From contig JAYWIR010000005.1 of NCBI GenBank assembly GCA_036172245.1, positions 1,302,001 to 1,366,000 on the forward strand: a stretch of 64,000 bases of DNA, written 5' to 3'. Position numbers and translations under genes: made by a program. The stretch is from Raillietiella orientalis. Taxonomy: Eukaryota. Position 1 is the first letter of the stretch. Every line of letters begins with the position of its first letter. This document shows positions 830 to 23,300 of this stretch, piece after piece. The notes below the pieces were generated by a model. That model was given only the letters and a program-made list of their open reading frames with translations, did not search any database and had not been told where the DNA came from.

Positions 830-960
830 TGGGGTGGGGGTGCCAGTTGTGGAAGGTGCGGCGAGAAGGACGCTCTCCCGCACCTCCTGCTGGATTGTGC
901 CGACGCCCTCCAGCCCCTTTGGGGTCGCTTCCCGACGACCCTAGGAATCCCGGCTGGCGG
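830..960 (+). pseudogene. Non-LTR retrotransposon ORF2 C-terminal zinc-knuckle fragment (zf-RVT-like)
   Basis: ORF 734-1117 contains CGRCGEKDALPHLLLDC (C-x2-C-x7-H-x4-C) followed by a downstream Trp (LQPLW), the typical LINE post-RT CCHC motif; no RT motifs nearby. Confidence 0.5.
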
Positions 961-3330: not shown

Positions 3331-3510
3331 TCTGGAAGCGCGCTCCAGCAAACGCGACGAGCAAGAACACCTGGAATTCTCGTGTCGCACATCACAACGC
3401 TTCCGCCTCTGCAAGGGATGCGTCCCTTTGACGTTCTTTCAGAACTGTTTCGCTGCTTTACTTCCAGATTTTTCTCTCATTTTTTTTTTTCTTTTCAGGT
3501 TTTCTTTTTT

Positions 3511-3790
3511 CTGGTTCTCAAGGAGTGCTGAAGAACCGTTCGCCACTTTACGGGGAGGCTTACAAACCAGGATTTCACGCCACACGAGGATGCGTGTCAC
3601 TCTTGAAGTTATAGAAGGTAATCCTCCTGTATGGACCACCCTATGAATCCAGGATGGTTCCGGAGGAAGGCGTCCGTTCCTTTCGAAGGATTCTCTCCTC
3701 GTTTCTTCCTTTGAAGAGAAAACCCGATGAGACGCTTCCCTATTTCTCTCTGAAGGGCGTGATCTGCCGTTAAGTCTCCAGGTTTCCCTT
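3511..3790 (-). mobile_element. 3' end fragment of the long SINE-like family, with A-rich tail (T-rich on + at ~3470-3510)
   Basis: Shares TCAAGGAGTGCTGAAGAACC and adjacent sequence with 16121-16300; also matches ~510-610 in reverse. Confidence 0.6.
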
Positions 3791-4144
3791 CCCAGCCGCG
3801 CGCTTCACTGCTTCGAGCCTCACTAGTGGGAGTGTCCGGGCCCTTCGTGTTTCCCGGTGAAGCGCCTCCGACCACGCCACGGTTTTCCGCGGCTGGCGCG
3901 GGCTCCACGGCAGGCCACGTCAGGCGGACGGAGCTTTCTCGCGAGGGAGGGACGCGCGGATGAAAAACTCTCGAGTCCGAGCCGGCGTAGAAGCTCCGTT
4001 GCCCGTCGCGCAGATTCCTTTCCCTTTCCCGTCGCTCGTGTTTGGGATTCCAAGAAGACGGCCGCTCGCGCAGTTCAGGAAGGTTGCGTTGGAAACCTCA
4101 GATCGGAAGAAGCTCGTCGGACGGCTGCTCGGATTCGAGTTCCC

Positions 4145-4720
4145 CCGCCGGCATCCGTGCGTGGAACGGAGCGTCGCGGGTTCGAATCCCTCCCGGGGAA
4201 GGATGGACGGACGCCGAGAGCCGTGGGTGCGCCGTGGGTTACTAATTCCTTCCGCAAGATGATGCTGGTTGTCCTTTCAGGAATCGAGGATCCGGTTCCC
4301 TTCGTGGAGTTCCCTCCGGTTGTGGAAAAGAAGCCGTTACCATGGATCTGGTTGATGCTCCCTCTCGGGGGGTCGCCTCTCCAGAGTGCAAGAAGCGCGC
4401 TACTCCTTTCGGGGAGCGCCTTTCGCGGGAATCGGGAAGCGTGCCTTCATGGTTCCTCTTCAGAGTAAGGGAAAAGAAGCAGTTTCCCTGCGGGTTCCCC
4501 CGAGAAGAAATTCCAGGAGTGGCTTCCCTCTTCCGAGAAGTCCCTCCGGAGGGAACAAGGGAAGCGGTTCTTTCTGGGGTTCCCTTCGAGCACAACCAGG
4601 TTGGAAGGTTCCCTTCGGGATTTCCCTACCAAGCGTGAGAGGAACGAACACTCTTTCCTCCGAACCCTTCACGGATTCATGGAGTGGTCCCCTTTCGGGG
4701 AGCTCCCTCACTTGAAGGAT
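4145..4720 (+). mobile_element. tRNA-headed long SINE-like element, copy B
   Basis: Anticodon-like arm TCCGT-gcGTGga-ACGGA (4154-4170) followed by T-arm/B box GGGTTCGAATCCC (4178-4190); body homologous to copy A. Confidence 0.7.
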
Positions 4721-7700
4721 TGTCTTACCCTGATGACAATGGAAGACTCCTTAGATGACCAAGTGTTGTCCACGGTGTGCCTTCCTCGTCTGCTCGCTTT
4801 GTGTGTGAGGTGAGCGGTCGCAGACTCCTGAGGTTCAGAGGAACCTCCGCGCAAAGTGGCTTAGCGGGGTTTCAGCTCTTTCTTGGCGCCCGCTCCAAGG
4901 GAGGCGACTGCAGATGAACCTCAGGACCGAGAGCGCAGTGGCTCGTCCTTGGCGCCGTCCGGACGTTCCATGGTCGCCTGCGAGATTAGAGTGGTTGGAG
5001 TTTCCGCGTCGTCACCACCCAACCCGGAGGGATTTCTCCCCCCCCCCTCCCCTTTGCGGTCTTCGGATGGAGCTGCATAGCGATCCCTGCTGAATTGCAG
5101 CCCAGGTGGGAGCAGAATTCTTCGCACCAGCAGCACGCCGGGCGGTTCGAGGCGTGCGCCGCGCGCGTGCACTCGGCCCCGAAAAGTGCAACTTCTTCAG
5201 AAAACCCGTTCCCATCGGATGTTCTCCCTGAGAGGAAATGGATGCGGTGCCCTCCTCCGTGTTATCTGTCTGCAGTGGATACTTTGGCACTTTCCTCCTC
5301 TCTCTGGGGGCTGGCTATCGGAGCAGGTGCGGATCCCGCTGCTGAGGAACACTGAAGAGGCTTCCGACGACAGTTGGATGCCTCTTGAGTGTTTCCCTCT
5401 TTTTTTTTTTTTTTTATCACCACACGCCTTGCTCAGCCCTAAAGGCACACTTTGTAACGACTCAACGATTCAATTAAAGATGCAAGACGCTGCTTTGAAA
5501 AACACCCGTGGCTAGGAAAGGTGGTTCGGCCGTACTAGCGTTGGCAAAAAAAAAGTCATAATTTGTGCTGCAGGGAAGCGTCGGTGCAGGACGCGCGCGC
5601 GAGGACGGGGAAAAGCTTCCCTGAAGAGGCAGTGGTCACGAAATCCTGCATTTTCAAGTGACTGATGGCGGACTTCCTGGGAAGCCTGATAAATTGTGCT
5701 GGAGAAGATCGGAGCGAAACCGGGTCTTCTTCGCCCAACCCACCTCGCCTTGGAGAATTCTTATCATCCCGCTGCAAATAAGGCGAAATTCCGTTCGACT
5801 GATTGCTTGGATAAACAAAAACTTGTTGAGACTTTGGGATCGACCCTCCAGCAGTTCTCGCCCAGCCTAGGATCTCTCTCTGCACTCGCACGATGCTGAG
5901 ACTGCCGAAGATCGAAAGCTGACAAACACAGAAATTTCCGCTCTGTCGTCGGATGTTGCACGAGACAAAGTGAGCGAGGAATCTGCTTCAATTCCAGGTT
6001 CACTCCAGCGCAGGTGTGACGGATGCGTTGCAGTCACTCCAGAATCCCATCTCGAGCTAATTGTCTTTTCCTTCACGGTTTGATGAACTGAACAGAAAGC
6101 TTTAACCTTGGGGCAGGAGTGGGCAAAGTACCACGAGCGCATGATCATCTCTAAAAGTGAAAAGAATTTTTTTTTTTTCAAAAAAACAATTAGGTTGGAA
6201 TGTTGGTCCATTGGGAAAACGCCAAGTGTTTTGGACGTTCCGCTGGAATTGCCGGTACACCGCGAACGACTTCGGACGACCAATCGGTGGTTCTTCGGCC
6301 TCCCAAAAACTCACCAGCAGGTTTCTTGGGTTTCGGCAACCGAATCGAACGTTCAGATTTATCACAATTTCCTCGCAGTGAACCTGCAGCATCATTGAAA
6401 ACCACAGCATTTTAGGCGGATCGTATTCGGGAGAGAGTCGCTGAATTTTTTAAAGTCGTGAGTTGCGGGCATCAAAGGTACCACAGCAAGAAACATCAGA
6501 GAAAGATCTTGTGATAGATCAGTGGTACTTGCTGGTATGTCAAGAAGCTGACCTCAATGTTTGAGGAACAGGGGAAAGCCTGTCTCTTAACACCAACATT
6601 CTTCGGCTTAGCGTGAATTATTCCGTGGGCTTACCGAAAGCATCAAGATGACCGATAGAATGCAAGCAGGCTCTAGAAGAGTACAGTATGCCTTTTTTTT
6701 TTTTAGAATCATTAGATCGAGGGCTAGAACAAAACTGCCTCCAAATGCATAGCAGAATGTTCAAGAGTTCATCTAATTTTCAGAGTTCGCCAAAAGACGT
6801 ACAGAGGATTGCTGGAAACATTTCACACTTGTAAATGGGGGTCTCCTAACTAAGTACTGGATCGGGTTGGCGACCTTGGGTCTCCAATGACTGACCCGGC
6901 GTGATTTCATCTACCATAAGCATTACAGCATGAAAAGATAGGTATGCGATCTTGTGAAAGCGTGCAAATACGAAACGAGAAGAAAAAATACATACTGAAA
7001 TTAAAAAAGAAAGTAAAAAGCGCTAGAACATAATGATATTTTTTTTTTTTTTATTCCAGTCATTTTTATAAACCCTATGTTCACTCCGGGACACATTTTT
7101 CATCACATACCGCGCGCGTTTTCTTCAGACGACGAATTGAGATAAACCGGCTGAAATCTTGGAATCAATCAAGTATCCTCGCTATTTCCAAGCTTCCTAT
7201 TTCGATTGGATACCTTTAAGAGAACGGATGTCTTTTAATCTATTAAAGTAATATTGGTAGCATTTCAGAAGCTGTATTGTCTGAAGCAGTCGGTTCTTAC
7301 TAGAACTTTTTTTTGGAAAAAAAAAAAAAAGTGCTGGATGATGAATTTTGCACGTTGCTAAGATATAGGCAAATGCAAAGGGAAGCTTGATAGCTAACGT
7401 TTGGAAATATCATAAGATCAGAAAACCGTAAATTATGCAAAGGCATGTCGAAGCAAAGTGTACAACTCCACGAAAGTTTTTTTTTCCCCTAGATACGAGC
7501 ATGGAGGAAAGAAATGGAGTCAGCAAACGGGACTGCCCTATAGGTGGGTTATCTGACTGGTTGCAGGAACGACAGTCCTCAAACAAAGATAAACTCTAAT
7601 CATATCATCAGCGAACTCGTGACAAGCGCTCATGTCTTTGCCATGAAAATAGCATCCCTCAAGATAAGACGGGGGTGAATTAGAAAGCAGTAGTGTTAGG

Positions 7701-8182
7701 CCGAATGATATGTGAAACACCAATAACATTCCCAAGCATTTTAGAAAATGAGAGAAATACGGTCCCGGTTGCTGTGAATGCACACACCGATATTTGAGTG
7801 TTTACCTTCACCAAATGTCATTCAGCCAACACTCGTGTCTTCGGCTCCTGAAATGGGATCGGATGTAATCTTCCATTTTCTGGCAGGGAGCCGAAGGATT
7901 TCGTTTTCTTGGCCGCTAAGGTTCCATTTTATTCCTTGTGGATTCGTGGTGGAACGAATATATTATGTGTACAACAAGGAAAAGTACATGGTCGCTTGCT
8001 ACTGAACTGGGTGTACAAATCTCGCTTACGACGAATCAGCTTTCCCTTTGACCAAATTCATCACTTTCCTAGTAAGGGAAAAAAGATCAGACGTTTTGGC
8101 TACTCTCGTTCTTTGCATGCCTCCTTTGTTGATGAATGAAAATCATTTTTGAAATGAGATTTTTCTTTCTTTGTTTTCTTTT

Positions 8183-8592
8183 TTGCCACAGTAAAGGTGC
8201 AGCAAAAAAAAAGAAAATTGTGTAACGCTTACTTTGATTTGAATTTAACGTCGTTACTTCATTTGAAATCACAAATTTCTTTCTCCGACCTAATCTGGAA
8301 TACTTTATGGCTGAATACTTGAATACTTAAAACACGCTTTATTACGTGATTAATTTTCTTGAATTAGCCACTTTAAATTGTGATTTTTTAAATTCATCTC
8401 TGCTCCTATATCAACTTGTAAGAGTAAACAAACTTCTTTCTAAATTTTCTGTTCATTATTTCGCACCATAGTAAAGGTGCAGCAAGAAAGAAAAGAAAAA
8501 AAATGTGTAACGATTGCTTTCATTTGCATTAGTGGTTATGTCATTCGAAATCATAAATTTGTTTCCCCGAACTAATCTTCCATACTTCGGCA
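8183..8592. repeat. Diverged local direct duplication (~125 bp; 8183-8310 and 8462-8592)
   Basis: Both copies contain AGTAAAGGTGCAGCAA...TGTGTAACG...TCATTYGAAATCAYAAATTT...CTAATCT. Confidence 0.7.
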
Positions 8593-9596
8593 TGCTTTAT
8601 TACCTGATTACTTTTCTGGAGTCATTTGCTTTATTTGAAATGGGAGAAATCTTTGTCTTTTCTCTCTTTCCTGCTTGCTTAATTATTCTCTCTCTCTGTG
8701 TGTGTTTTTTGGATCGATGGGAGCTTGGTACCCCTGCATCGAGTGAGAGACCGTTTACGTAAGAATCGGCGGCGCGCAAGTGCCCATGCGCCCGCTCGAA
8801 TCCCGTAAATTGAATATTAATGGAGGGCTGTGCCTTTGTCCGTGCACAAGTCTTTGGGGAACATGGAGGGATGTTTTCGGTTGCCACGACCACCGCGCAA
8901 AGGTGTTCATTGCGGTGCGAGCGTTGGGCGAGCCACCTCCCTGATCCCGCCTGGTCGTGGTACACCTCGGAAGGAAGGAAGGGTTCGCCCGTCCCCGAAG
9001 GCACACACACAACACGTGCAATCCGTGGGTGTTTCAGATGACGAGCTCGAGTGGAATGAACCTGAGGGGAGGAATGTTTCAACATGGGGATCTTCTCTCA
9101 ACTTGTTGCAAATCATTTTTTCCTTTTTTTTTCTTAAGAAAAAAAAAAAAAAAGTCCTCTTCTTCCTCCTGGAAGTGGTGTCGCTTCAGAAGGTGGGATG
9201 GCCGGCGGAAGACAGCTCCGGTGGTGGGAGAATCATCTCCCTCTTGCGCACTCAACACGTGTCCAACACCGAAAAGGTCACACGGTTTTATGACGGCTCA
9301 GCACATCGAAACGTGTATTTCGTATCTGATTTTCCTGTTTTCCGATGCAGTATTCTGGAAACGACTTTTTGCGAGTCAAAAAATGTTGTTACACCGAGTC
9401 TTAGCCTAATGTTTTCTTTTTTTTTCTTCTCCCCCCCCCCTCTCTCTCCCTTTGTGTGTGTGTGTGTTTCTGCGGGCACATGCTTGGATCACGCGGAGTA
9501 GCTGCTGGGAAAGCAGCTTAACGGTAAAGATAAATCACCAAAGCACTCTGGAATGCACAAGCCAGTGGAGAAGAGGTCGTCTCGAAGTTGTTGAAA

Positions 9597-11265
9597 ATGG
9601 TGCGCCGGCTGGTAGAATGTGTTCCCAATTTTTCCGAGGGCTGTAACCGTGAGGTAAATGCTGAGCGGGAGAGGCTGTGGGAATTTCATTCGATTTTTGC
9701 AGATTATTGATGCGATCGCGAATGCAATCCGTGACACCGACGGTTGTAAGCTGCTGGATGTAGATCCCGGCTCGTCTACCAACCGTACGGTGTACACTTT
9801 CGTAGGCGATCCGAACGCTGTTGTCAGTGGAGCGTTGAACGCGTCACGAGTTGCTTACAATCTCATTGACATGACGCGCCATAAGGGCGAGCATCCTCGT
9901 TTAGGGGCGCTGGACGTGTGCCCCTTCATTCCTTTGGAAGGCGTGACGGACGAGGAGTGCGTGGCAGTGGCTCGGCGGTTCGGCTCCAGCCTGAGTGAAG
10001 CCCTCAACGTGCCAGTGTACCTGTACGGCCTTGCGGCCACACAGAAGTGTCGTGAAGAGCTGCCGAAGATACGAGAGGGTGAATACGAAGGCCTGGAAGC
10101 AAAGCTGAAAAAGCCGGAATGGGCGCCGGATTTTGGAGAGGCTGTTTTTGTGCCACGCTGGGGAGCAACCGTAACGGGCGTGCGCCAGTTTCTAATTGCT
10201 TACAATGTGAACATACTGGGGACAAAGGAACAGGCTCATCGTGTTGCACTTGATGTTAGGGAACTAGGTCGAGGACAGGGAAAACCAGGGTTGCTTACTC
10301 ATTGCAGAGCCATAGGCTGGTGGCTGGATGAGGAAAACATTGCCCAGGTTTCAATGAATTTGACAGATTTTTCTGTTACTGGCATGCATCAAGCATATGA
10401 AACCTGTGTACAGCAGGCAACCCTTGCAGGAGTAGCAGCTACAGGATCTCAAATAGTAGGCCTAGTCCCACTTCGTTCTTTGTTAGATGTGGCACACTAT
10501 TATGTGGAAAAGGAGAAACTGTTGATCCTTGAGGAATCACAGAAGCTGCACTTGGCAATTCAGCGTCTTGGACTAAACAGTCTGGGGCCCTTTATTCCAG
10601 AGCAGCGCATCATTGAGTATGTTGTTGGTGGCGAAGATGGTCATCTTATGTCACTGTCGTTGAAAAATTTTGTCTTAAGTGTTGGATCAAGGACTCCAGC
10701 ACCAGGAGGTGGTTCAGTAGGGGCAGCTGTGGCAGCACTTGGAGCTGCTTTGGGAAACATGATGGCCCAGCTAACATATGGAAAACGCCAGTGGGAACAT
10801 TTGGAAGCTAAAATAAAGAATATACTTCCCCAAACATATGGAACTATGAAATCTCTTCTGCCTCTAGTGGATGCTGATACTGGGGCATTTGAAGAGTATG
10901 TGGCTGCCTTGCGTATGCCTTCAAATACTGAATCTGAGAAAGAACAAAGACAGGAAGCCATGCATAAAGGCTTGATGGCTGCCATCAGAATACCACTAAG
11001 TGTTGCTCAAGAGGCAAGCAAGCTATGGCCATCTCTTTTAGATTTGGCCAGCATAGGCAACATCACTGCTTTGTCTGACCTGCAGAGTGGTGCAGTCTGC
11101 TTGTATGCAGGCATTCGTTGTGCTTGCTTCAATGTTTTCATCAATAGTAAGAAACTGCCAGAAGGGGAAGCACGCTCAAACGTAGAGGCAGAAGCAAAGC
11201 ACTTGGAATGTGAGGCCAAGAGCCAGCTTGATGCAGTTCTTAATGCAACTGCACAACGTGAATGA
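9597..11265 (+). CDS. FTCD: Formimidoyltransferase-cyclodeaminase; exons 9597-9653 and 9703-11265 (539 aa)
   Basis: Exon 1 MVRRLVECVPNFSEGCNRE, GT..AG intron 9654-9702 (49 nt, phase 0), exon 2 IIDAIA...STNRTVYTFVG...GEHPRLGALDVCPF...IREGEYEGL...PAPGGGSV...DADTGAF; hallmark formiminotransferase and cyclodeaminase motifs. The ORF-track start at 9658 lies in the intron. Confidence 0.97.
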
Positions 11266-11460
11266 ACTTGATATACTTGAGTTGGTGTGGTGAAATAGTA
11301 TTGTTTTCATGGCATAACAAAATGCATTGAAATGGGTAAAGTTCCCTTGAGCAGTGATGAAGTATGCAAATGCATAACCAGAGAGTATGAAGAAAGGAGA
11401 CAATGATATCTGAGCAACTTCCCCATGTTGACTTTTAGATATGGAAAATCTGTAAAGAAC

Positions 11461-11466
11461 AATAAA
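11461..11466 (+). promoter_or_regulatory. Candidate polyadenylation signal of FTCD
   Basis: AATAAA ~200 nt after the FTCD stop codon. Confidence 0.45.
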
Positions 11467-12239
11467 AAAATCTTCAATGCTGCTGTTTTCACTTTTGTCT
11501 GGGGAGGTCATGCTGCCTGCTGACTTCCACTTCTGACTCGAACGATGCTTTTCAATGGATGCATTAACATCCCAAAAGTGTCCCTCGATTCTCAATGCAA
11601 TTGCTTTTCAACAAATGCGTTCCTCGACTGTCCTTACGACTGAAACATAACAAACACGTGACAGGTGTAGTTTACATTTTTTGCCAATTTCTTAGGTCCT
11701 CCCAATCGTGTCGATCTGCAACCTTTGGGCTCCACCTGCATGCCACCGACCGGATTTCGATGGATTTTCAGCTTCAACCGAAGCAAGGTGAATTCGAACC
11801 ACTCGAACTGGCATGAAATACCCCATTTTTTCTCGCTGCCCGATAGGTCCGCACATCCCTTTTATGCAAACTCGGCGCATTCGAGCACTACTCAAACAAA
11901 TTTGTGTTGCAGAAAATTAAACAAAAGAAAGCAACGTCTTTGCTTGTTAGTTTCCTTCCCAGAAGGCGTGCACACATCCGGGCACATCATTGTGTTGTAC
12001 GTTATAAAGAAGAGGAAGAAGAAGAAAAAAAAATAATGTACGCTTGTTAAGGCTTCTTGTTGCGGTTGAAGAATCCGTGGAAGAATTTCAAACAGCACCA
12101 TAAATTTGCTTTGAACAGACAAATGCCGTCCCTGCCTGGCTGCCACATGCAATCGTCTCAACGCAGCACCCACCGCAGACGCTCGCTGGTTATCTTCATC
12201 TCAGCCGTCGTCTCGTCTTGCTGAGCCTCCCCTGCGTTC

Positions 12240-12480
12240 AAGTGTCGGGGTCGGCTGCGGGCGCACTTGAGTGCTCCCACGAAGCACGTCGCCGCGTCCC
12301 CGTATTCCTCCGGGTGCATCACGGGATGGTGAGGAGGAATGGGGCGCCAGCCGCGCTCGAACCGTTCCAGGGGGTCGCCTCGCCTTCCCGTCGCCCTGCA
12401 GCGCGTGCTGCATCCTGCCGCATCCTTTCGCTGACAGAGAGAATGGAGGAAGGGGTCCTCTTTCACGCCGTTTTGCTTAG
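12240..12480 (-). pseudogene. FLYWCH/WRKY-like zinc-finger fragment, possibly from a MULE transposase
   Basis: ORF 12158-12466(-): LCQRKDAAGCSTRCRATG...RFERGWRPIPPHHPVMHPEEY...FVGALK, a C-x7-C...H-x-H-like pattern followed by a helix; no catalytic domain found. Confidence 0.35.
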
Positions 12481-14758
12481 CCGTTGCGTGTTCGTCGTCG
12501 CTTCCGTTTCGGTTTCGGTGAAAGGAAACCCAATGGCGTGCGGTTTCTGGATTCCGGGATGAAGTAAAAAGGGCTCGAAATCTTCCATCACCTCTCGCTC
12601 GAATGAAGTTTGTTCAAAGTGTTACGTCATCGCTGCAAATTCATTTTTGTTTTTCCCTCTTCGCAGGAATGCCAGATGCCGAATCCTGGATTTTCCTTTT
12701 AAGTTTGAGTTGCTTCCTTATTCACAGAAACAGCCGACTCTTCCCAGAGTACCTTGCTTTCGGACAGTAGCGCCTGCAACCACCAGGTTGCGTCATCATG
12801 AGGAATTTCGTGTGCACTGTACACATGTCTAAGAAGGCGAAGATGCTAGAAGTGATTTAAACAATCTAAGCCCGACAGGGTCCATGACTTGTCGTTTTTC
12901 AGAGTTCTGGAATTACACTGGGTGTACACCCAGGAAAAAGACGGCAAAGAGCACACCTTTCGAGCCGTTCTCTTTGAGCGATCTCACAGACAGCATCGCT
13001 GCATTAATAAGAATCAGAAGTTTCTTCGTCCAGAGAAGATTATTTACGCACTTTTTCTCAAAAGCTGCAAGAGTGTCGTGCTGCTTAGTTGCTTCGAGCA
13101 GGCCATAGCTTTCGGAACCTAGTTGTCTGATTCCTGCGGCTGATATCCTTCTCCATGACATCCTTCTCCAGGGAAATCTGTTTGTCACAAGCGGAGGTTT
13201 TCGATTCGGTTTCCGAGTGTTCCCATCCTATCCAAGGAGACGTCCCTGCAACCTTTCCGAGACCTACATTCGAGGTGACCACGTGTTTCGAAATCCTTCG
13301 ACTTTCTCGGGAAGGAAGGAAAACTCCACGGCTCTGATCATGTCGAACCCTGGAACGGAAATTCGGAATGAAATTTCCGCCCAGCAGAATCCTTCGAATT
13401 CCAGGCCTCCAGATGCCCCGAACACTTTCCTGAGCGTTAGCAGACTCATTTGCTCCACGGTTAGGTTCTTCAGATGTCTTGCTGGGTTATTAATCGCGGG
13501 TTTTGATCCCCACGTTATCTTCCGTTCTCTTAAAGGCTTATCGAAAATCGCGGAGCAGTGCGGCTGTGAAGATCATCGTGTCTTTTTTTTTTTTTCTTGA
13601 GGCACCAATGGTTCATCGGTACATTGAGTACGGTTTTCTTTCCATTTTGGCGCACACGCTTCTCTTGAGAAGCAGCAAGCACGACTTTCACCTTTCGCTC
13701 CTTGCTCGCGGTTTATAGGGAGGATGATAGCCGTTCCAGCTGCTCCCTGTACGCATCTTCTGCTCGGAAAACTCGTCTTTCACTTGCTCCGCGAGGACTG
13801 ACTGCGGAGGAGATCTGCGAACTTTACACACACGGGGCAGCATCCAGCCGAACACGCCAGACCGATATGTGCTCCCTGTTCTCTGGAGCAACACGCGCGC
13901 GCTCACGTACGAATCCGCGTGTTCGAAAATCAATCCCGCAGGCTGACTCCTCACGCAACCAACGCGTTTCCGGGAAAGAGCACACGAGTCGTCAGGTTAG
14001 AATTCTAGATCTGACGGAGCTCCTGACGTTCTGGAGTATCTGGTTTACTTCCACACAACCGCTTTGGTTTCAGAGGGGCACGCTGTTCCGCGAGTTCGTC
14101 TGCTTCCAAGTACTGCCTCTGGCCTCGATGCCGTTCCTCAGTCGCATGTCAGTCCGAAAGCTTCGGGCTACGCCGCGGTTTGCGTGGCAGCCTTGCGGGA
14201 GCTTGAAAAGCTTCCGGTTATGTCTCAATCGCTGGTCACCACATACCTGACCGTGAGCTGGAGAGCGGTCCAAGCTGTCTCCGGTGACGGAGCGAGAGCG
14301 CTTTTCCGGCCACCGCTGACCCCTAGTCGAGGATGAGCAAACTGTTTCGAAGGAAACGGCTAGTTCTGTGATGGTGGAAGGTTCGAACGGCATCGAGCTG
14401 TGCAACCGGGTGGACAGTGTTGGTGTCACGGGATCCCGTGTGTCAGATATCTGTCTCTGGTTACGTAATCCGATACATGCGGGAGATAACGCCGGAACAG
14501 CAGCACGCTCTATCTTTCCGCTCTTATAGGTGAGTCCGCGCATGTTGGTTCGTTTGTTTGGGCGAAGTGGGCACCCCAGCAGAGGGCCAACTCCGTTCCA
14601 GGTGGTTTTCGACCTGCCCTCACCAGCCGGGCATGGGAAACAACAAACGCACACCCAAAAGACCACGCGTGTCAGAGTTTTGCCGAAGATACTCTTCCGC
14701 AGCTACTGGGGACCTCCTCGTGTCCCATCGGCTGTGTAAAGCCGAAAATTAATGTTTA

Positions 14759-14863
14759 ACGCAGGCATATCAAGGTATTGAATTTGTGCAACAAATTGTT
14801 GCCCAATTGCCATGGGGACATAATGTGTTTCTAATGGATTTACTTCAGGACAAAGAATCCAGA
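14759..14863 (+). pseudogene. Fragment of a bacterial-type YhcG/DUF1016 family gene (N-terminal domain)
   Basis: Translates TQAYQGIEFVQQIVAQLPWGHNVFLMDLLQDKESR, matching the recalled DUF1016 signature F.EA..D.E.VQQ.VAQ(L/I)PWGHN..L...KD...R; AT-rich patch; in-frame stop just upstream, no start codon. Confidence 0.8.
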
Positions 14864-15289
14864 GTCAAACTAAATTGCAAGAAAGTTTGCTTTCGATCTC
14901 TTGTCTTACCGAACATTTCACTCATGATGTATATGTAACCATTAGTTACCTTTTGACGCAGAAAAGGCATATTATTTTTCAAATAAGAGTGACTACTCAC
15001 AAAGTTGCACCACAGTGGGTGCTTTACGAGTGTCATTATCAAGAGGACCAGTGAACTTTAGACAAGAAGAACAACTCAGGCTTGTTGAATGCATTAGGAT
15101 TCTATTTTTCTTAGTAGAGATCAGACTGCAGCTTTCTTCGACTCGTTTGCTTCAAAGCGCTGAGAGGAGAAGCTATCTTTAGGGTCATGTTCAAACTACC
15201 GTCTGCCATGTAGCCGCGCGTTTCAACCCACCATCCATGTTTAGCAGCGGGAGGACTTTCCTCCTCGGCACTCCCTCATTTGAATTCTC

Positions 15290-15560
15290 TCCCGATGAGC
15301 ATTACGTAAGAACACCGAGGAAGAGTATCGCCGTCTTCAACCGCGCGTAACACACACCGCATTTCAGCCTTCCCCAATTCTTCTCCCTTCGTGCAGACCG
15401 CACGTCGGCGATGCTCTGGCGCTCGTTGCTGTGCGGTTGTCCTGCCAACCGATACGGCTGAAGTCGTCACGTTCGTGGCTTCAGTCCTGAAGGTTTCTCC
15501 CAAAAGTCTTCCTTTTGCGGAGCATCCCTTGCCTGCATATTTCTTCAGGTTCCTTCGAAT
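15290..15560 (-). pseudogene. Decayed zinc-finger fragments (FLYWCH-like then RING-like)
   Basis: Minus-strand pieces KKYAGKGCSAKGRL and RLKCGVCYARLKTAIL/(frameshift)PRCSYVM resemble FLYWCH and C3HC4 RING half-sites. Confidence 0.25.
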
Positions 15561-16114
15561 TTCCTTCACGCCTCTTCATTTTTTTTTTTTTTTCTGTCAT
15601 TTCTCCCACCTTCCCTTCTCCCTCGGAAACCTCAGCGCTGTAAAACGCTTCAACTGGTTTTCTTCATGACCACGGCGCCTCTTTCCCCCAAAGAGCAAGG
15701 CAGATTTTTTCCTTCCAGGATCCTGCCGTGACCTCATTCGCGGCGCCTCTGCGCCTCCTCCTGCACCGAAAACATGGAAAGGCGGAATCAGGGAAGGAGC
15801 GATCCACCATTTATAATTTAAGAAGGTCGCCCCTCCCCCCTCCTTTCCTCCTTGGTGTCCTTTGTAAACCCTTGCCTTTCTCATCTCGCGTAGGGAAGCG
15901 ATGCCCGCTGCCTGCACGGGAACGCAGCGAAGTGCTGCCGCGCGTTCTCCACGGTGGGTATCCAGCAAAGAAAGGGAGCAGCGAGTTCGCGCCAGGGTGC
16001 CTCGGGGCGCGCACTGCTGCCCCATCTTCAGAAAGGGTCCCACTGGACGCGCTCGTCGAGCTCTTCCACGCAGCATCCCGAACTGAATTTTCCAAGATTG
16101 GCTTTGGTTTAGTT

Positions 16115-16955
16115 CGGTCCTCAAGGAGTGCTGAAGAACCAGTCGCCTCCCTAGGGGAGAGTGGCGGTCATGAAGCTCCCTGGCATCGTATACGCCACCC
16201 GAGGGTGCGTGCTGACCCTTCAAGTTACATTTGCGAAACCCTTCTGCCTACAAGGGGTGATCCGGTGGGTCACCCTATGGATCCACTAAGGCTCCGGAGG
16301 AGGAAGGAGTTCCTCTCACACTTGGAAGGAGACCCCGGAAAAGATACTCTCCTGGAATTCCTTCTCCTGGGGAAACTGGCAAGGGAACGGCTCCCTGTGA
16401 CTCCTCTGAAGGGAACCCTGAAGGGACGTCTTCCCGATTTCCATGAAGGGCGCTCCTCGAAGGGGGCAGCACGCTTCTTAACACTCTGGAAGGGTATCAA
16501 CCAGGCTCCATGGGACCCTCCATGGTAACCAGCTCCATTTTCCCGACGGGAACGGGATCCCGAAAGGAACGGGCTCCTTGGTTCCTTCTCTGAAGGGACG
16601 CTTCCGATTTCTCTGAGGGGTCGCTCCCAAAGGGAGCAGTGCGCTTCTTCGCACTCTGGAGAGGCATTGGTCCATCGGCTCCATGGCACGAGATGGAAGG
16701 AGTCCCCCACGAGAGGAACAACCCCGAATCATCCTGGAAGGACCCCGGAGAGCCAAAGTTCCAGTCCCGGCCGGTCAACGGGGGTATCCGGCCTTCACCA
16801 GTACAGCACTCGAAGCCTCCAGGCCAACCAGCGTCGTCCTGCGAAAACCACAACATGCCCACCATATCTCGGTTTTGACTCTTCTCCGGGTGGAGGGATT
16901 CGAATCTGCGACGTCCGGCGCCACTCGCAGCGATCTCAGCCACAAGATCGCCAGT
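16115..16955 (-). mobile_element. tRNA-headed long SINE-like element, copy C (most complete, ~0.84 kb)
   Basis: Minus strand: TGTGGCTGAG...GTGGC...CGTCGCAGATTCGAATCCC head (16895-16955), body homologous to copies A/B with an internally duplicated CCAGAGTG..AAGAAGCG block, and the same 3' end as 3511-3540. Confidence 0.7.
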
Positions 16956-19399
16956 AAGGGCCAGTATGGCCACGACCTGCCATAGATTGTTTTTTTCCTG
17001 AGAGGAACGCCACAGCTGACCATTTGTGAAAGCGGCAGCGGGGATTGCCCTTTGGGTCCTCTACGCGCCGAGAGTCCATGGAAACGATGCTGCTAGCAAA
17101 GACAAGTCTTCTTCTGCGGAAGCATCTGGTTTATCCTGTCCGCTGTGGCGACTGTCGAAGAACGCCCATTCCTGTTGCAGCATCCTCCGCCCGCACTGGA
17201 ACTTGGACCTCTCGATAGGGTTCTGCCAGTTGCTCAGTGCCATCTCCGGCGTCTGCACTTCCAGCAGCATCTTCTAGAGAAACAGGTCTTTCTCTTGTGC
17301 ACCTTTTGACAAGCCGTTTGGTGGGGACCTTCGGTCCCCTTGGCTGCCGCATCTCCCATAAGCTGGTTGCCCGGGAAATCGGACCACCGGAAACTCTACT
17401 GCCCCTCCCCCCTTCAACACTCTGGAGTTCGCTGCGTTCCCCCTCAGGCACTCTTTCAAGCTCACAGCCTCCGTCCGAAGACGAGCCCGCATCGGGACTC
17501 GAACCCCCCTTTCGACTCAGCAGAATCCCGGGGTCCTCGGGGAGAACCCTCAGGCGCTGGCGTCTCAGGTGTGCTGGACCGCGGACATTTCTGGCGAGCT
17601 CCAGGCATCGGACCACCAAGAGCGGTCGCGCTCCGCCCCTGAGGTCTGCCGGCACGACACCTCCAGCTGCCTCTGGCGCGTGTGGTCTCCGTGTTCCGGT
17701 CGCCACGGCTTCGCGCCAGACAACGCCCATCCATCCAGTCGGCTGGGGGGAGCGTTTCTCGGATTCGTCCCATTCCTGACGGGAGCACCCCGCAGTTTTC
17801 GAACTTGCTCGCGTTCCTCGCGACTGCCTGCGCAGGGCGAGAGGCAGCCGGAAGAGAACAGCGCTGCGGGAACTTCGTCGCCGGAGCGACCTTGGGGAGG
17901 ACAAACCGGAAGGCCTCACCTAGTGGATCTCAGGGTGAAGCCTGTCAACAGGGCGCAGAGGACCTCAAGGGAATTCCAGCGCCCTGTCCCATGGGAGGAG
18001 CCGCTCGTTTCTTTCACCGGCTCTCCTCCTCTTCCTCCTTCCCCAAGGCCGTCGCCTGGGGGAATGAGGACGTCTTCGCTGGCTTCTCGTCCAGAATTTT
18101 CTTCGGACCTCGGGCGGCAACCGGCGGCGTCCCCACTTAACATTCTTTGATTCATCGCTTCCTCGCGTGTTCATTGCTTCACGCACATTCATTGCAACGC
18201 GTCTCCCTTCGATCTTTTGCATCTCTTCTCCCTTTTGCTTCCTCCTTTCTTGCCTACCAGTTCTTCATCTGGAGTTGCTGTGACTACTTCGAAGGCACCG
18301 CAGCTCAAATCGTGGGGCCAGCTGTACGATTGGCACCTTTGGAGAATAGCGACCTATTCCGTTTCGGATTTTCAGAACCTTCGCTCCTGCAACCGCCGCC
18401 TCCGTGCAGTCGCAGCGAAACCCCTGCGTTCGCTTTTGACCTTTCGGCGGCTCCTCTGAGCGGGCATTCTCTCCTGGAGCCGCGGCGCCGACTGCCTGAT
18501 TCTCCGCCCCAGAGGACCTCAAGACGGAGAAGCGAGCTGGAGAAGCAGGGATGAGATTGTCAGCATCGCGCCGTCACCCATGCTGGACACGTGTTCCCAG
18601 ACACCGCCTGGGAGAAGTGGACCGTCGCGAGCGCGTCCGTGGGGATCCAGCGAGTTCAAGAGGGGTCTTTCCGTCCACGGGCCAAGACGGAAGGCTCCTC
18701 CGTGGCCGCACCTGGGGGCGTGACCGCAGTTCGTGAGCTGGGGGGAGATCCTGAATTACACCTGGCACCGGAGCCGGTGCGCGCCCCCCCAGGATCTGAT
18801 AAAACCGTGAATGTTCGTACGGGTTCCGGAGCGAGGGGCCTTCCGGCTTCCATGTCCTCCCGGAGTTTGCAAAACACTCAACCTATTTCCTCTTTCCCTG
18901 ACGGAAGGGACGACGGGGACTCGTCTGGACGGTGGAACGTCGGATACCGCGTACGTGTCGCGACCTCTCCGCACGTGCGTGACTGCACACACACGAAGTA
19001 CGTGGACCCGAATCCGTGTCCCTCCCCCCTCCCTCCCGTCCCCAGCCACAGACGTGCTGCGCTGCTGGGGTCCCCCCCGTCTCCCCGCTCGTCAGCCTGC
19101 TTGACGTGGCACGACGGCTGGACCAACACTTTGCATCTTTGGATCCTCCCTCGTCGCACGTGCCGATGTCTGGAGCTTGGCACGCACCAGAGCTGCACCA
19201 GAGCCCCTCAACCGCAGCATTCCGTGCAAGAACTCTGCGGCTAAGGAAAACAGAGGCAGTCTCAACCCTTCCGCCTGCAGCCCTACGCCCCAGTCTGCAT
19301 ACGATGCTGTCACATGTGACATGATGTGGTAAAACACACACACAGACACGGGTTCGGTTCCAAATCCCGACTGTCGAAATCTCCGTAGATCACAAAGAT

Positions 19400-20350
19400 G
19401 TATACTATTACTCACAGATTAATGTATATTGTAAAGATTACAAAAAAACAATATACATGCTTGTTATGTATATTAACATACCGATTAATGTGTTTGTACA
19501 GATCGTAAGAAAAATAAATATATATGCTTACTATGTATATTAGCATACAGATTGATGTGTATTGTAACCATTATAAAAAAAGTATATGTTATCATATAGA
19601 TTAATGTATATTGTAAAGATAATAAAAAAATAAATATATGTGTTTACTATGCATATTAATATACACATTTATGAATAGATTAATATGCGAATTTGTTTTA
19701 GCATACATATTTATTAATATTTATTAAACTACATATTATCAATATAATTAATAATAAGCATTCATATATATCTTATCAACATGTATATTAAGGGTGATAA
19801 AAAAATTAATATACATGCCCATTACATGTATTTTATTTCTTCCACTTTTTAAATGTCACCATTATTTTTCATTTTTTATAATTTGCTATTTTTATAATAT
19901 GTATTTATTATGCATATATATAAATATGTACTAATGCGTGTAATATATAATAAAATATATACGAATATATAACGAGCACGTACATTTATTTTTTAGACTC
20001 TTTAATACAGATATGAATAATATACTAATACATATCACTAATTATATTAATAATGTTAATAAATATCAGTAACTATATGTCAAAAAAATATTAATATCAA
20101 CAATATGCATGCTAATATATATTAACAAACATATATGTTACAATGAATTTTGCATATTAATCCAAATATATATTTGCAATATGTATATTTGGATGAAATA
20201 GATTATTACATAGATTTGGATGGGATATTGATAATGACGGATATCGATAAATATGTATGTAATCCATATATATATGTACATATTAGAATCCATATTACAA
20301 TATATATTATTGCATAGATTAATCTATAAAATACAAATACACATTTATGA
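19400..20350. repeat. Very AT-rich island with a degenerate ~65-bp minisatellite
   Basis: Units beginning (C/T)AGATT(A/G)ATGT..TTGTA near 19415, 19481, 19548, 19597; reverse-oriented similar unit near 19960-20010; sharp contrast with GC-rich flanks. Confidence 0.8.
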
Positions 20351-23300
20351 TCTTTCGGGATTTCGACATTCGGAGTTTTTGATCGGTCTCGCACGGACAC
20401 GGAAGAGTCCACAAACACACCCACGGCATGAAATGATGCCATGTGTTTAGCAGCATTTGTCCATGGATGGAGTGTTAGTAGGATAGTGACATCTATAATA
20501 AGGCCACTAGTGGTCCGAGGCGTAAGCCATGCCTTAGGCCGTATTGGTGAATCGGAGGATGAGGTCGTGTGGTCTTTTCGGCCCGTAGCTGTTTGCTCTC
20601 ACTGGGAGGGACACCTCTTGCCAGGGATGTGGCACCCTGTAGTCGATGTCGATGGAGGCACGAACCCCAAGTAGGTTTCCCAGAGTCTGTTGCTCCTCGT
20701 CTTCCCTGCCTCCCGCCTCGCCTCTCCCACCGACCTCCTGGCGGTGGGAGAGGCTCTCTCCAAAACCTGCTTTCTTCAGCAGCAGCAGGTTTTGGGGAGA
20801 GGTCCGCCTGCTTTACCTCTGTCCGTGTCCGAACTACTCCTGTGTTTATGGCACGTGTATCTAACGACGTGCACTACAGTAGACGGATGTATACAGTAGA
20901 GGACCCATGTGTACAGAGCAGGGTAAAGAGCACACATGCTTCGGTGTTTTGTAGTTCAAGTCGTATCGATTGCATGCAGTACGGGATCCATACGTATGTG
21001 TTGCAGAACAACGTGTGCAACTACATTCGAATGCTTCAGGAGGAACCTGCGATGCCTTCGCGCTCTCTGGGAGGAAGAAGAGGTCAGAGCAGGAAGAGAG
21101 TACCTCCCCTTTCCCTGCGGCGCCCCGCCTGCCGGTCCACCAACGGCCCTTTTCTCCTTTTCATCTGAACACCGCAGTGTGCAGCTTCCCGTTCTTGCGG
21201 TGGCCTCCGCCCCCATGTCAGGCGACGCCACGTGCTCCAGGTGATGGCAGCCCTCGTCCCGCGCCCCGTTCCGCGCCACCCCTGCCCGAACACCCGACGT
21301 GGCGACGACTCGCACCAGGGATGATCTCCCGAACTGGGGGACTCACGTGGGCGCGGGACACAGCAGCGCGCCTCCCGGAGGCGCTCCGCAACGTCCAGCC
21401 GGAGCAGCGCGGTGGCTAGAGTGGGGGAGAGAGGCCAGCTGCCGCCCTCCCGCCCCGGGGGGCCGAGACAGATGTTGCCTCCTGGCACGGAGGCGGGGCC
21501 TCCGCGCGGCGAAGGTGCCCTGCGGCGCTCGCGTCGTCGTCTCGGTGGTGCGGCCAAGGCACGGAAGGCGCCAGGATATCTGGCGCTCCTGCCACGGTGT
21601 GCCGAGCCGGCAGGCGGTCTTGTCCCGCGGCAATGAACTGCCTGCGCGGTCTGACGCCCCGGGACTCCCGGCTGCGTTTGAGCCACTCTTACGCTCTCAA
21701 TGCAGCTGAACACCTCCTCAGGCCGCATGGCCCTACCAGCCATGCAGTGTTTTTTTTTTTTTTTCATTAGAAATTTTTTTTTTGGCCTTTTGCTGCAGCG
21801 CCACCTTGAGTGGCGGACTCCTCTTCCCCGTGGCTGCTTCAGAAGGAGTCCTCACTCCCCTCTGACTGCGTGTTCACAGTCTGCTGCAAGAGGCGTCCCA
21901 GCGCCACTTTCCATCCCGCCCTGCCGGACCTCTCATTTAAAACAAATACATAAAGTTGGCGCCGTCAGAGAAGGGCGGAGTCGCTCCCGAACGGAAGGCA
22001 CTGAACGTAACGATTCCCGGGGGTCCGCGTCGGGAAGGGAAGGGGAGGAAAGGGGTTTGCGGGGGGCACGCTCGTCGGTTCTGGGGTCCCCCCCACACGA
22101 TTGCCTCCTCGTCCCCTGCGTCTCAGACTGGGTCATTCCGTTAATCCTGAAGCAGGGCGACTCAGATCCCGAGCGGTCCCCCGGGGAGTCGACGACGGGA
22201 GACCACGCCCTTTCCTCCATTTTGGCCCTAGCCCATCGGCCACCTCCACTCCGGAGCCATCTTCCAGGGGACAAAGACCCAGGAGCCGACCCGTGGGCCA
22301 TCAGGGCGTCTCGGCGGCGCACGGCGCGCCCACCGCCGTTTAGCTGACGTCGGACCGTCGTGGAGCGGACAGGAGCGGACGCTCCCTCACGGAGTGCTGC
22401 CAGGACATCCCCGCCCGCCCCAGACCTTCCTCGCCTCCTTCGCTGGAGCACCCGCGTGCGATCGGAGCCTGCGGAGGTGAAGGCGCGGTCTGTTCCTCCC
22501 CTGCCGAACTCTGAGCGATGCGCCTACAAGTCTCCCGGGGGCGGACGAGGCCGAGGCCGATAGAGGCGGAACCGGCGCCGCCGAGCCTCAGAGCGACACT
22601 GCGCCGCCGATGGTACCGCCTGGCCGACGTTCCGCATGCCGCCTCGAACAAGAGCCCTCCGCCCGCTGGACCTCCATACGCTGCGGCAGCACGTATGGAG
22701 GTCCAGGTAGAGGAGGAGGAAAAGCAGAGAGCGACCCGGCCCGCCCCTCTTAGCCGGGATCCTGGCGACCGTCCCCCTCCTGCTCGCCGCCTGGTGGTGC
22801 CAGGGTCCTCTGACTCCGGCGCGCTTCCCCCAGAGGTCCGGAAAAAAAAAGCGCCAACAGTGCAAGTCGTTACCCGATGAGTGCGTTTACGCCCCAGGGC
22901 TCGTGCGAAACGCCTTGAGGGAGGCGCTCCGGGAGATGCGAGAGGTTGGCACCATCGCGGACTCGGACCCAGCCTCAGGGCGACTCTTCTCTCCAAGGAA
23001 GGTCGTCCCCCCCCCCCTGCCCTCCTCTTTCCTAAAAGTCTCTTCGCCCTCCGACCATCCAAGTGGAGCCTCCGCGCGCGTCTCCGAAGGAGGGAAGGGG
23101 GGGTCTGCTGAAAGAAGAAGAGGGGAAGGGAAAGGAAGGAAGAAGACGTCTGGAAGACTGGACTCGTCCGTCTCGCTCCTCCGGTACTTTTCTTATGCTT
23201 CCGCCTGGATGCGAACCTCCAGGCGTCATCTACCCTTACCTCAGATGTTTAGGAGTAGGCGAGGAAAAGATGGTGGTCTTGGGAAGGAGATGGAACTGGC

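What the first reader, a model, noticed from the sequence alone, without database searches (positions are those of the whole stretch)
14759..14863. Bacterial YhcG/DUF1016 gene fragment embedded in animal DNA (candidate endosymbiont transfer)
Seen: a 35-codon stretch, QAYQGIEFVQQIVAQLPWGHNVFLMDLLQDKESR, in an AT-rich patch (~14735-15120) among GC-rich host sequence, 3.5 kb from the intron-containing FTCD gene. It is absent from the ORF track because it has no upstream start codon. Known: VQQ.VAQ(L/I)PWGHN is a signature of the N-terminal domain of prokaryotic YhcG/DUF1016 (PD-(D/E)XK nuclease-like) proteins, which occur in arthropod intracellular bacteria such as Rickettsiales. Inference: a small nuclear insertion from a past or present symbiont. 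The lack of internal stops suggests it is not very old, and the adjacent AT-rich ~250 bp may also be foreign.
Basis: partly seen in the sequence, partly recalled or inferred. Interest (0 to 1): 0.7.

Follow-up and report, generated by a model that had tools for sequence, protein, structure and literature searches.

The report
Tiny mosaic Wolbachia insert in animal DNA
A 250-base patch in an animal chromosome is stitched from three short, unrelated pieces of Wolbachia bacterial DNA, an ordinary dead relic of symbiont-to-host DNA transfer with an unusually clear patchwork structure.

Summary
Window 14759-14863 (+) encodes part of a YhcG/DUF1016 N-terminal domain (Pfam E=2e-4). The closest proteins are Wolbachia YhcG, 28/33 residues identical.

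DNA comparison with 60 Wolbachia-genus genomes changes the picture. The AT-rich patch is a mosaic of three Wolbachia pieces that lie hundreds of kb apart in complete genomes:
- yhcG, 14764-14857, sense, up to 94% identical.
- The 3' end of adk plus the adk-rpsM spacer, about 14856-14910, antisense, 97%.
- folB, 14910-15013, sense, 95%.

The pieces abut with 2-nt and 1-nt overlaps. None of 38 other genomes of the same family matches. No other convincing Wolbachia piece was found anywhere in the window.

The flanks are animal DNA. An FTCD gene with a 49-nt GT-AG intron lies upstream, and LDL-receptor class A exons lie downstream.

Best reading: a non-functional nuclear Wolbachia transfer, made by end-joining of degraded symbiont fragments at one chromosomal break, as in complex NUMTs. 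Read support for the junctions could not be tested because no runs were listed. The AT-rich margins 14735-14763 and 15014-15120 remain unassigned. This is a new member of a known kind, of modest interest.

The parts
14735..14763 (.). AT-rich left margin (29 nt, GC 0.31), origin unassigned. It may be a further captured piece or host DNA.
   Evidence: GC per segment. No match in 60 Wolbachia-genus genomes; best E=0.044 for window 14600-14775.
14764..14857 (+). Piece 1: sense fragment of Wolbachia yhcG (DUF1016/PDDEXK nuclease gene), about codons 91-121 of a 343-codon gene. It has no start codon and no nuclease domain.
   Evidence: 94% identity over 94 nt to G049, 93% to G055 and G053, 90-91% to G007, G013 and G026. 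Pfam DUF1016_N. 28/33 aa identical to P0006. tblastn of 25 relatives finds no other part of the gene in the window.
14856..14910 (-). Piece 2: the last ~14 codons and stop codon of Wolbachia adk (adenylate kinase) plus part of the adk-rpsM spacer, lying antisense to the window's + strand.
   Evidence: 57/59 identical to G031, G037 and G040; 56/59 to G012. In L132 the match covers the 3' end of a 216-aa ORF that scores as adenylate kinase, next to uS13.
14910..15013 (+). Piece 3: sense fragment of Wolbachia folB (dihydroneopterin aldolase), 34 codons from the C-terminal half.
   Evidence: 95% to G038, 92% to G012, 90% to G019 and G031, falling to 70-75% in other genus genomes. The source ORF scores as FolB. 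The only named protein hit is FolB of the Wolbachia endosymbiont of Atemnus politus, 28/36 identical.
14855..14858 (.). Junction of pieces 1 and 2. G at 14855 fits only yhcG and T at 14858 fits only adk. The AA between them fits both, giving a 2-nt microhomology.
   Evidence: Ungapped alignments extended past the ends. Column-by-column comparison.
14909..14911 (.). Junction of pieces 2 and 3. C at 14910 fits both donors, so the join is a 1-nt overlap, essentially blunt.
15014..15120 (.). AT-rich right margin (107 nt, GC 0.38), origin unassigned. Its composition resembles the Wolbachia pieces, but no donor was found.
   Evidence: GC. No DNA match in 60 genus genomes, best E=0.0037 over 26-28 nt. 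0 of 301 genomes of the order matched. Two protein frames gave 0 of 60. Rfam found nothing. Pfam found nothing significant. The library-wide phmmer search found only repetitive junk translations.
9597..11265 (+). Host context: animal FTCD gene. Exon 1 is 9597-9653, a 49-nt GT-AG intron is 9654-9702, and exon 2 is 9703-11265.
   Evidence: All three Pfam FTCD domains, E 1e-57 to 1e-62. 58% identity to a sea-spider FTCD over residues 17-539. Exon 1 and the intron were read directly.

Best explanation
The patch is a dead nuclear Wolbachia transfer (NUWT) in an animal chromosome.

At least three short pieces of Wolbachia DNA (94, about 55 and 104 nt) were joined end to end. They come from yhcG, the adk 3' end and folB, which are unlinked in the bacterium. 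The concatemer was sealed into one chromosomal double-strand break by non-homologous or microhomology-mediated end joining. This is how complex NUMTs and NUPTs form.

The donor of the two core-gene pieces belonged to a Wolbachia lineage far from the wCon-type genome G001. Since insertion the patch has drifted neutrally by about 4%. It encodes nothing.

What is shown:
- The Wolbachia origin of the three pieces.
- Their non-contiguity and mixed orientation.
- The sharp joins.
- The animal flanks.

What is inferred:
- A single event.
- The end-joining mechanism.
- Neutrality.
- That the assembly reflects the chromosome.
For: 1. Each piece matches Wolbachia-genus genomes at E=1e-20 to 2e-39 per genome. 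52 of 60 genomes match at least one piece. Within the family, all 52 matching genomes of 98 are among those 60, and 0 of the other 38 match.

2. In complete genomes the three sources are far apart and differently oriented. In G055 they lie at 1,190,451(+), 928,834(+) and 1,077,044(-). In G031, adk is at 1,421,065(+) and folB at 380,497(-).

3. The joins are sharp, with 2-nt and 1-nt overlaps, and homology stops abruptly outside them. The range reported for NUMT end joining is 1-7 bp microhomology or blunt ends, and non-contiguous, mixed-orientation pieces are attributed to concatenation before insertion (PMC2820518, passages read; PMC6215612, abstract read).

4. The pieces are gene-internal scraps, one of them antisense, with no start codon. 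No other part of yhcG is in the window.

5. The patch is isolated. Elsewhere in the window the best Wolbachia hits are E>=4e-5, in low-complexity AT-rich DNA. This holds when every first-look candidate is scored in the five closest genomes.

6. The flanks are animal DNA: FTCD with a spliceosomal intron, and LDLa exons.

7. The identity ranks of the adk and folB pieces agree across genomes. G012, G031, G037 and G042-G045 are high for both. G055, G053 and G059 are about 83% for adk and 78-80% for folB. This fits one donor for these two pieces.
Against: - No reads could be laid because no run was listed. Linkage to host DNA and single-copy depth are unverified.
- No empty site from a relative is available. 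One event versus several, and the host-insert junctions, are therefore inferred.
- 136 of the 386 AT-rich bases have no identified donor.
- The yhcG piece is closest to genomes whose folB is only 75-80% like the window's (G049, G055, G053, G007, G013, G026). Either yhcG moves between Wolbachia lineages or there were two donors.
- Wolbachia gene order varies between strains, so adjacency of the three sources in an unsampled donor cannot be strictly excluded.
Confidence: 0.7

Rival explanations
1. The patch is the remnant of a much larger Wolbachia insertion (tens of kb up to a whole genome). Later deletions and inversions whittled it down to three abutting scraps.
For: Large Wolbachia insertions that fragment with time are documented (PMC4046930 passages; PMC4299567 abstract). 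The unassigned AT-rich margins could be more decayed remains.
Against: The sources are hundreds of kb apart and in mixed orientation in every complete genome examined. At least two huge deletions plus an inversion would have to end within 250 bp. Nothing else Wolbachia-like is left in 64 kb. The three pieces are similarly little diverged, about 4%, which leaves little time for such erosion.
Confidence: 0.12
2. The patch is an assembly or library artefact. Reads from a co-sequenced live Wolbachia were chimerically joined into a host contig.
For: No read evidence could be obtained. Neither junction word occurs in the metagenome collection, so there is no independent sighting of the junctions.
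Against: A misjoin gives one long bacterial tract at a contig end. It does not give three pieces of 55-104 nt from different loci, bounded on both sides by 14.7 kb and 49 kb of animal DNA. The pieces also carry about 11 private substitutions, including a 3-nt cluster.
Confidence: 0.06
3. The pieces were captured and are carried by a host mobile element (Helitron- or Pack-type gene-fragment capture). The patch is then one copy of a repeat family.
For: Patchworks of short gene fragments are typical of capturing transposons (PMC6544945, listing and abstract start only). The unassigned margins could be element sequence.
Against: There is no second copy in the window. There are no terminal inverted or direct repeats around the patch. 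I saw no recognisable Helitron ends in the sequence (read by eye). No transposase domain occurs in the 124 + 17 ORFs scanned in 1-30000.
Confidence: 0.06
4. The patch is functional: an exon of a domesticated gene, a regulatory element, or a small-RNA source against the symbiont.
For: Two frames are open across the pieces, 14753-14938 and 14824-15054. A cag/G lies just at the left edge of the yhcG piece.
Against: There is no GT donor at the end of the homology. The pieces lie in different frames and orientations. Only 31 of 343 yhcG codons are present, and the nuclease domain is absent. The differences from the nearest yhcG fall 4, 1 and 6 on codon positions 1, 2 and 3, with 5 of 33 residues changed, which shows no sign of constraint.
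Confidence: 0.03

Closest known systems
NUWTs: nuclear Wolbachia transfers of filarial and other nematodes and of arthropods (PMC3849323; PMC4046930; 10.1101/2025.03.17.643741)
   Same: Short, inactivated pieces of Wolbachia genes sit in intergenic host DNA, co-assembled with host genes and evolving neutrally. They can be used as fossils of a past or present symbiosis.
   Different: The reports I read treat fragments individually, mostly over 100 bp or E<1e-30. My word searches of two of these papers found no 'mosaic' or 'rearrang'. Here three unlinked pieces of 55-104 nt abut directly within 250 bp. The host is an unplaced, long-branch animal with GC-rich DNA, not an AT-rich filarial worm (the filarial composition is recalled).
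Complex NUMTs, NUPTs and 'numins' formed by end joining at double-strand breaks (PMC2820518; PMC6215612)
   Same: Several non-contiguous donor pieces in mixed orientation are concatenated with 0-7 bp microhomology and inserted at one site. They are non-coding filler DNA.
   Different: The donor is a facultative bacterial symbiont, not an organelle. The host-insert junctions cannot be analysed here because no empty site is available.
Large Wolbachia genome insertions (Drosophila ananassae chromosome 4, PMC4299567; Armadillidium f element and Callosobruchus, both recalled)
   Same: The same donor genus and the same direction of transfer.
   Different: Those insertions are kb- to Mb-scale, largely collinear with the donor and often duplicated. 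This one is 250-386 bp and scrambled.
Wolbachia YhcG/DUF1016 PDDEXK nuclease genes (P0002, P0006; one is named 'Phage uncharacterized protein' in wNo)
   Same: Window 14764-14857 is 90-94% identical in DNA to codons ~91-121 of this gene.
   Different: Only 9% of the gene is present, and there is no nuclease domain, start or stop of its own. It is a fragment of a member gene, not a member protein.

Membership tests
YhcG / DUF1016 protein (Pfam PF17761 N-terminal domain plus PF06250 PDDEXK nuclease domain) | N-terminal domain match at Pfam's gathering score | tested here: not met
   21.9 bits against a cut-off of 32.8. Only profile positions 77-109 of 137 are present.
YhcG / DUF1016 protein (Pfam PF17761 N-terminal domain plus PF06250 PDDEXK nuclease domain) | C-terminal PD-(D/E)XK nuclease domain present | tested here: not met
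   tblastn of 25 relatives (most of them full length) against all 64 kb finds only 14753-14866. The next best hits have E>=0.43.
YhcG / DUF1016 protein (Pfam PF17761 N-terminal domain plus PF06250 PDDEXK nuclease domain) | Descent from a yhcG gene (nucleotide-level homology) | tested here: met
   94% over 94 nt to G049 and 93% to G055 and G053. 28/33 aa identical.
NUWT (nuclear Wolbachia transfer) | DNA similarity specific to Wolbachia | tested here: met
   52 of 60 genus genomes match. 0 of 38 other genomes of the family match.
NUWT (nuclear Wolbachia transfer) | Embedded in host nuclear DNA on both sides | tested here: met
   In the assembled sequence only. FTCD with a GT-AG intron lies 3.5 kb upstream, and LDLa exons lie 40 kb downstream. 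No other bacterial matches occur in the flanks.
NUWT (nuclear Wolbachia transfer) | Junction-spanning reads at host-level depth, or PCR from symbiont-free hosts | not testable with these tools
   No sequencing run was listed. No host genome is held.
NUWT (nuclear Wolbachia transfer) | Bacterial genes disabled | tested here: met
   Scraps of 31, ~14 and 34 codons, one of them antisense, none with its own start.
Complex (multi-fragment) end-joining insertion, as in complex NUMTs and NUPTs | Two or more non-contiguous donor fragments directly abutting, with orientation free to vary | tested here: met
   Three pieces from loci 100-1000 kb apart, arranged sense, antisense, sense.
Complex (multi-fragment) end-joining insertion, as in complex NUMTs and NUPTs | Junctions blunt or with 1-7 bp microhomology, and no long homology | tested here: met
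   Internal junctions have 2 nt (AA, 14856-14857) and 1 nt (C, 14910).
Complex (multi-fragment) end-joining insertion, as in complex NUMTs and NUPTs | Host-insert junctions and the pre-insertion (empty) site consistent with one break | not testable with these tools
   The outer 29 and 107 nt are unassigned. No related host genome is available.

The most novel reading that the evidence does not exclude
The patch is not inert filler. It belongs to a host locus that samples scraps of symbiont DNA and turns them into small RNAs, like endogenous viral elements in piRNA clusters. The mixed sense and antisense orientation of sub-100-nt Wolbachia pieces would then be a rudimentary germline 'memory' of the symbiont. 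Nothing found here supports this beyond the mixed orientation. It is simply not excluded, because no RNA data could be obtained.
Probability: 0.03. Interest if true: 0.8.

Novelty: new member of a known kind. Interest (0 to 1): 0.3.

Why it matters
Wolbachia-to-host DNA transfer is well known, so the existence of this insert is not surprising. It has three modest points of value.

1. It is a very clean miniature. Three unlinked symbiont pieces are joined with 1-2 nt overlaps, which suggests that symbiont DNA can reach the germline nucleus as highly degraded fragments under 100 bp and be used as break filler, exactly as organelle DNA is.

2. Pieces this small fall below the length or E-value filters of the NUWT surveys whose methods I read (over 100 bp in PMC4046930, E<1e-30 in 10.1101/2025.03.17.643741). 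Such micro-mosaics may be under-counted.

3. The two core-gene pieces point to a donor lineage distant from the wCon-type genome. The only named protein hit is from a pseudoscorpion Wolbachia. For a host on a long, unplaced branch, this is a datable marker of present or past infection.

Tried and rejected
- **Species representatives first looked wrong.** Against 80 loci from the genome collection, the yhcG piece looked only about 77% Wolbachia-like, no better than unrelated bacteria. The representatives carried a different yhcG type. Searching all 60 genus genomes found the right type.
- **Exon hypothesis.** An acceptor-like cag sits at the left edge, but there is no donor and no other exons. 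Rejected.
- **Phage collection.** No match for 14700-15150.
- **Plasmid collection.** Three weak 80-83% hits of about 47-55 nt, all in the conserved yhcG core, none of them Wolbachia.
- **Unassigned margins.**
  - Left margin: genus DNA search gave only chance-level hits.
  - Right margin: genus DNA search, 301 genomes of the order, two protein frames, Rfam and Pfam gave nothing or only chance-level hits.
  - Right margin, 52-aa minus frame: the phmmer search of 1.84 billion proteins gave 3 hits. All are translations of tandem repeats (16, 5 and 5 matched stretches), which I judged spurious. The other frames were not sent to that library.
- **Sequencing runs.** None was listed for 14300-15500, with no RNA holder and no DNA holder.
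- **Metagenome scans.** Both junction words gave 0 matches.
- **Earlier findings of this scan.** None by place, by sequence or by words.
- **Promoter and terminator scan.** Nothing found.
- **Repeat scan.** No flanking repeats around the patch.
- **Host placement by an FTCD tree.** Failed. The window's FTCD sits on a branch of length 0.78, outside every supported group (32 named sequences chosen by me from the 120 listed).
- **AT-to-GC bias among private substitutions.** 5 AT>GC, 3 GC>AT and 3 others. Too few to read.

Full report
**Observation**

- It matches Pfam DUF1016_N at E=2e-4, over profile positions 77-109 of 137. This is below the gathering score, as a quarter of a domain must be. 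NCBIfam gives nothing.
- A search of 5.8 billion proteins returned 25 of 25 scored candidates at E<=0.01. The 10 that carry a Wolbachia name all rank among the best 14.
- The best full-length relatives are 28/33 identical over YQ..R[LV].
- tblastn of these 25 relatives against the whole window finds no other part of the gene. The next hits have E>=0.43.
- The AT-rich patch is real: GC 0.31-0.38 over 14735-15120, against 0.58 and 0.52 in the flanks.

**A false start**

Against 80 loci taken from species-representative genomes, the fragment was only about 77% identical in DNA to a named Wolbachia locus. That was no better than Bacteroidota or Clostridia. This would have meant an old transfer or a non-Wolbachia donor.

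The cause was that those representatives carry a different yhcG type. Searching the gene in all 60 genomes of the genus found matches in 45 of 60, and recovered the matching type. The fragment is 88/99 identical to that type across the codons, and 93% over 90 nt by blastn.

**The main result**

I searched window 1-20000 as DNA against the 60 genus genomes. 52 of 60 matched. The search showed three separate Wolbachia pieces side by side:

| Window range | Best identities |
|---|---|
| 14764-14857 | 94% G049; 93% G055, G053; 90-91% G007, G013, G026 |
| 14852-14910 | 97% G031, G037, G040; 95% G012, G028, G042, G045 |
| 14910-15013 | 95% G038; 92% G012; 90% G019, G031; down to 70-75% in others, including G001, the genome of the wCon locus |

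Per-genome E-values are 1e-20 to 2e-39.

Annotation of the source loci gives the genes:
- Piece 1 is yhcG, sense.
- Piece 2 is the last ~14 codons, stop codon and 13 nt of downstream spacer of adk (adenylate kinase, next to rpsM). It lies antisense in the window.
- Piece 3 is 34 codons of folB (dihydroneopterin aldolase), sense.

In complete genomes the sources lie hundreds of kb apart in mixed orientation. For example, in G055 they are at 1,190,451(+), 928,834(+) and 1,077,044(-).

**Junctions**

Ungapped alignments extended 30 nt beyond each piece show homology stopping abruptly.
- At the join of pieces 1 and 2, G14855 fits only yhcG and T14858 fits only adk. AA14856-14857 fits both.
- At the join of pieces 2 and 3, only C14910 is shared.
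- After 15013 and before 14764 no donor matches.

**Specificity and background**

- In a family-level search, all 52 matching genomes of 98 belong to the 60 of the genus. 0 of the other 38 match.
- Elsewhere in the window the best Wolbachia hits are weak. They are E=4e-5 to 1e-3, 26-89 nt, mostly in a 17-23% GC low-complexity block. Positions 60001-64000 gave 0 of 60.
- The 20-kb queries scored only five candidates per genome. I therefore repeated 1-9600, 11266-14763 and 15014-21000 against the five closest genomes with all candidates scored. The best hit was E=4.8e-5 at 74% identity, again in the low-complexity block.
- The patch is therefore isolated.

**Unassigned margins**

Positions 14735-14763 (GC 0.31) and 15014-15120 (GC 0.38) resemble the pieces in composition but have no donor in the searches run.
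- Left margin: the genus DNA search gave nothing better than E=0.044.
- Right margin:
  - The genus DNA search gave nothing better than E=0.0037 over 26-28 nt.
  - 0 of 301 sampled genomes of the order matched.
  - Two protein frames gave 0 of 60 each.
  - Rfam and Pfam gave nothing significant.
  - A library-wide phmmer search of the 52-aa minus frame gave only tandem-repeat translations.

They may be pieces of strain-specific or intergenic Wolbachia DNA, pieces too short to recognise, or host DNA. This is open.

**Host context**

- FTCD is an animal-type gene. All three domains are present, and identity is 58% to a sea-spider protein.
- I first took it for intronless. In fact the conserved N-terminal motif lies in a separate 19-codon exon (9597-9653), followed by a 49-nt gtaaat...ttgcag intron.
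- Two ORFs at about 57.0 and 61.5 kb carry LDL-receptor class A domains.
- No other Pfam domain was found in 141 ORFs of 1-30000: 17, and 124 of the 136 ORFs of >=100 aa, the remaining 12 having been.
- An FTCD tree with 32 named animal sequences leaves the window's protein on a 0.78 branch, outside all supported groups. The host is an animal I cannot place.
- No host genome is held.

**Age and donor**

Where all close Wolbachia copies agree and the window differs, there are 5, 1 and 5 private changes in the three pieces. This leaves out one position that belongs to the overlap. The total is about 11 in 250 bases, or 4.4%, and includes a TCT>CAA cluster at 14980-14982. This is an upper bound on decay since insertion, because the true donor is unsampled.

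Differences from the nearest yhcG fall 4, 1 and 6 on codon positions 1, 2 and 3, with 5 of 33 residues changed. That gives no sign of constraint, but the numbers are too small to test.

The adk and folB pieces rank the genomes alike, which fits one donor lineage. The yhcG piece is closest to genomes whose folB is only 75-80% like the window's. The simplest reading is that this yhcG type moves between Wolbachia lineages; one copy is labelled a phage protein in wNo. Two donors cannot be excluded.

The only named hit for the folB piece is FolB of the Wolbachia endosymbiont of the pseudoscorpion Atemnus politus, 28/36 identical. That search scored a single candidate, so it does not identify the donor.

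**Mechanism**

The structure is that of a complex NUMT or NUPT: non-contiguous donor pieces in mixed orientation, joined blunt or with 1-7 bp microhomology, and inserted at a double-strand break by end joining. Concatenation before insertion is the favoured explanation for such structures (PMC2820518, passages read; PMC6215612, abstract read). I commit to the same mechanism here, with degraded Wolbachia DNA as the filler (confidence 0.7).

Rivals:
- Erosion of a large insert (0.12).
- Assembly artefact (0.06).
- Carriage by a capturing transposon (0.06).
- Function (0.03).

**Comparison with the literature**

NUWTs are documented in filarial and strongyloid nematodes and in insects:
- PMC3849323 and PMC4046930: passages read.
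- 10.1101/2025.03.17.643741: passages read.
- PMC4299567: abstract start only.

Word searches of two of these papers found no use of 'mosaic' or 'rearrang'. A search for Wolbachia plus end joining, insertion, host genome and fragments returned 8 papers, none about NUWT junction structure as far as titles and abstract starts show. I read passages of one of them, and it was not relevant. A search for Wolbachia plus lateral gene transfer, microhomology and nuclear returned 2 general reviews.

This does not show that micro-mosaic NUWTs are unreported, only that these searches did not find a description. Supplementary tables of those papers were not consulted.

**Verdict**

This is an ordinary kind of event, a dead symbiont-to-host transfer, in an unusually legible patchwork form. 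Physical confirmation by reads is still missing.

Noticed in passing
window 9597-11265 (+): The FTCD gene has a 19-codon first exon, one 49-nt GT-AG intron (9654-9702), and then a single 1.56-kb exon. Its protein sits on a very long branch (0.78) among animal FTCDs. Its coding GC (0.44-0.50) is lower than that of much of the surrounding non-coding DNA (0.55-0.69), which is the reverse of the usual pattern.
   Followed up: partly
window 19395-20345: A block of about 950 bp at 17-23% GC sits in DNA of about 60% GC. It contains degenerate tandem repeats of period 67 and 49. It is bounded by similar sequences in inverted orientation...TGTCGAAATC... on the left and its complement on the right, as read by eye. 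It may be a hairpin-type mobile element or satellite. Its weak 74% hits to Wolbachia genomes look like low-complexity noise.
   Followed up: partly
window 55516-57336 (+) and 60891-62021 (+): Two long open frames each contain one LDL-receptor class A domain (E about 1e-10). They are probably exons of one multi-exon animal gene on the + strand.
   Followed up: no
window 14980-14982: Inside the folB piece, three adjacent bases differ from all five close Wolbachia copies (TCT in them, CAA here). This is a multi-nucleotide change rather than three independent hits.
   Followed up: no
Wolbachia-genus genomes G001-G061 (loci L081-L113): yhcG/DUF1016 is patchy and multi-copy in Wolbachia. 45 of 60 genomes match. 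There are at least three sequence types (about 92-96%, about 72-84% and about 30-34% identity to P0006), up to five matches per genome, and many truncated or stop-riddled copies. This behaviour fits a mobile, phage-associated gene.
   Followed up: partly
window 21000-64000: GC stays at 0.56-0.70 for more than 40 kb, apart from one dip to 0.49. Long open frames occur on both strands, and almost none have Pfam content. The long ORFs here are a composition effect, not genes.
   Followed up: partly
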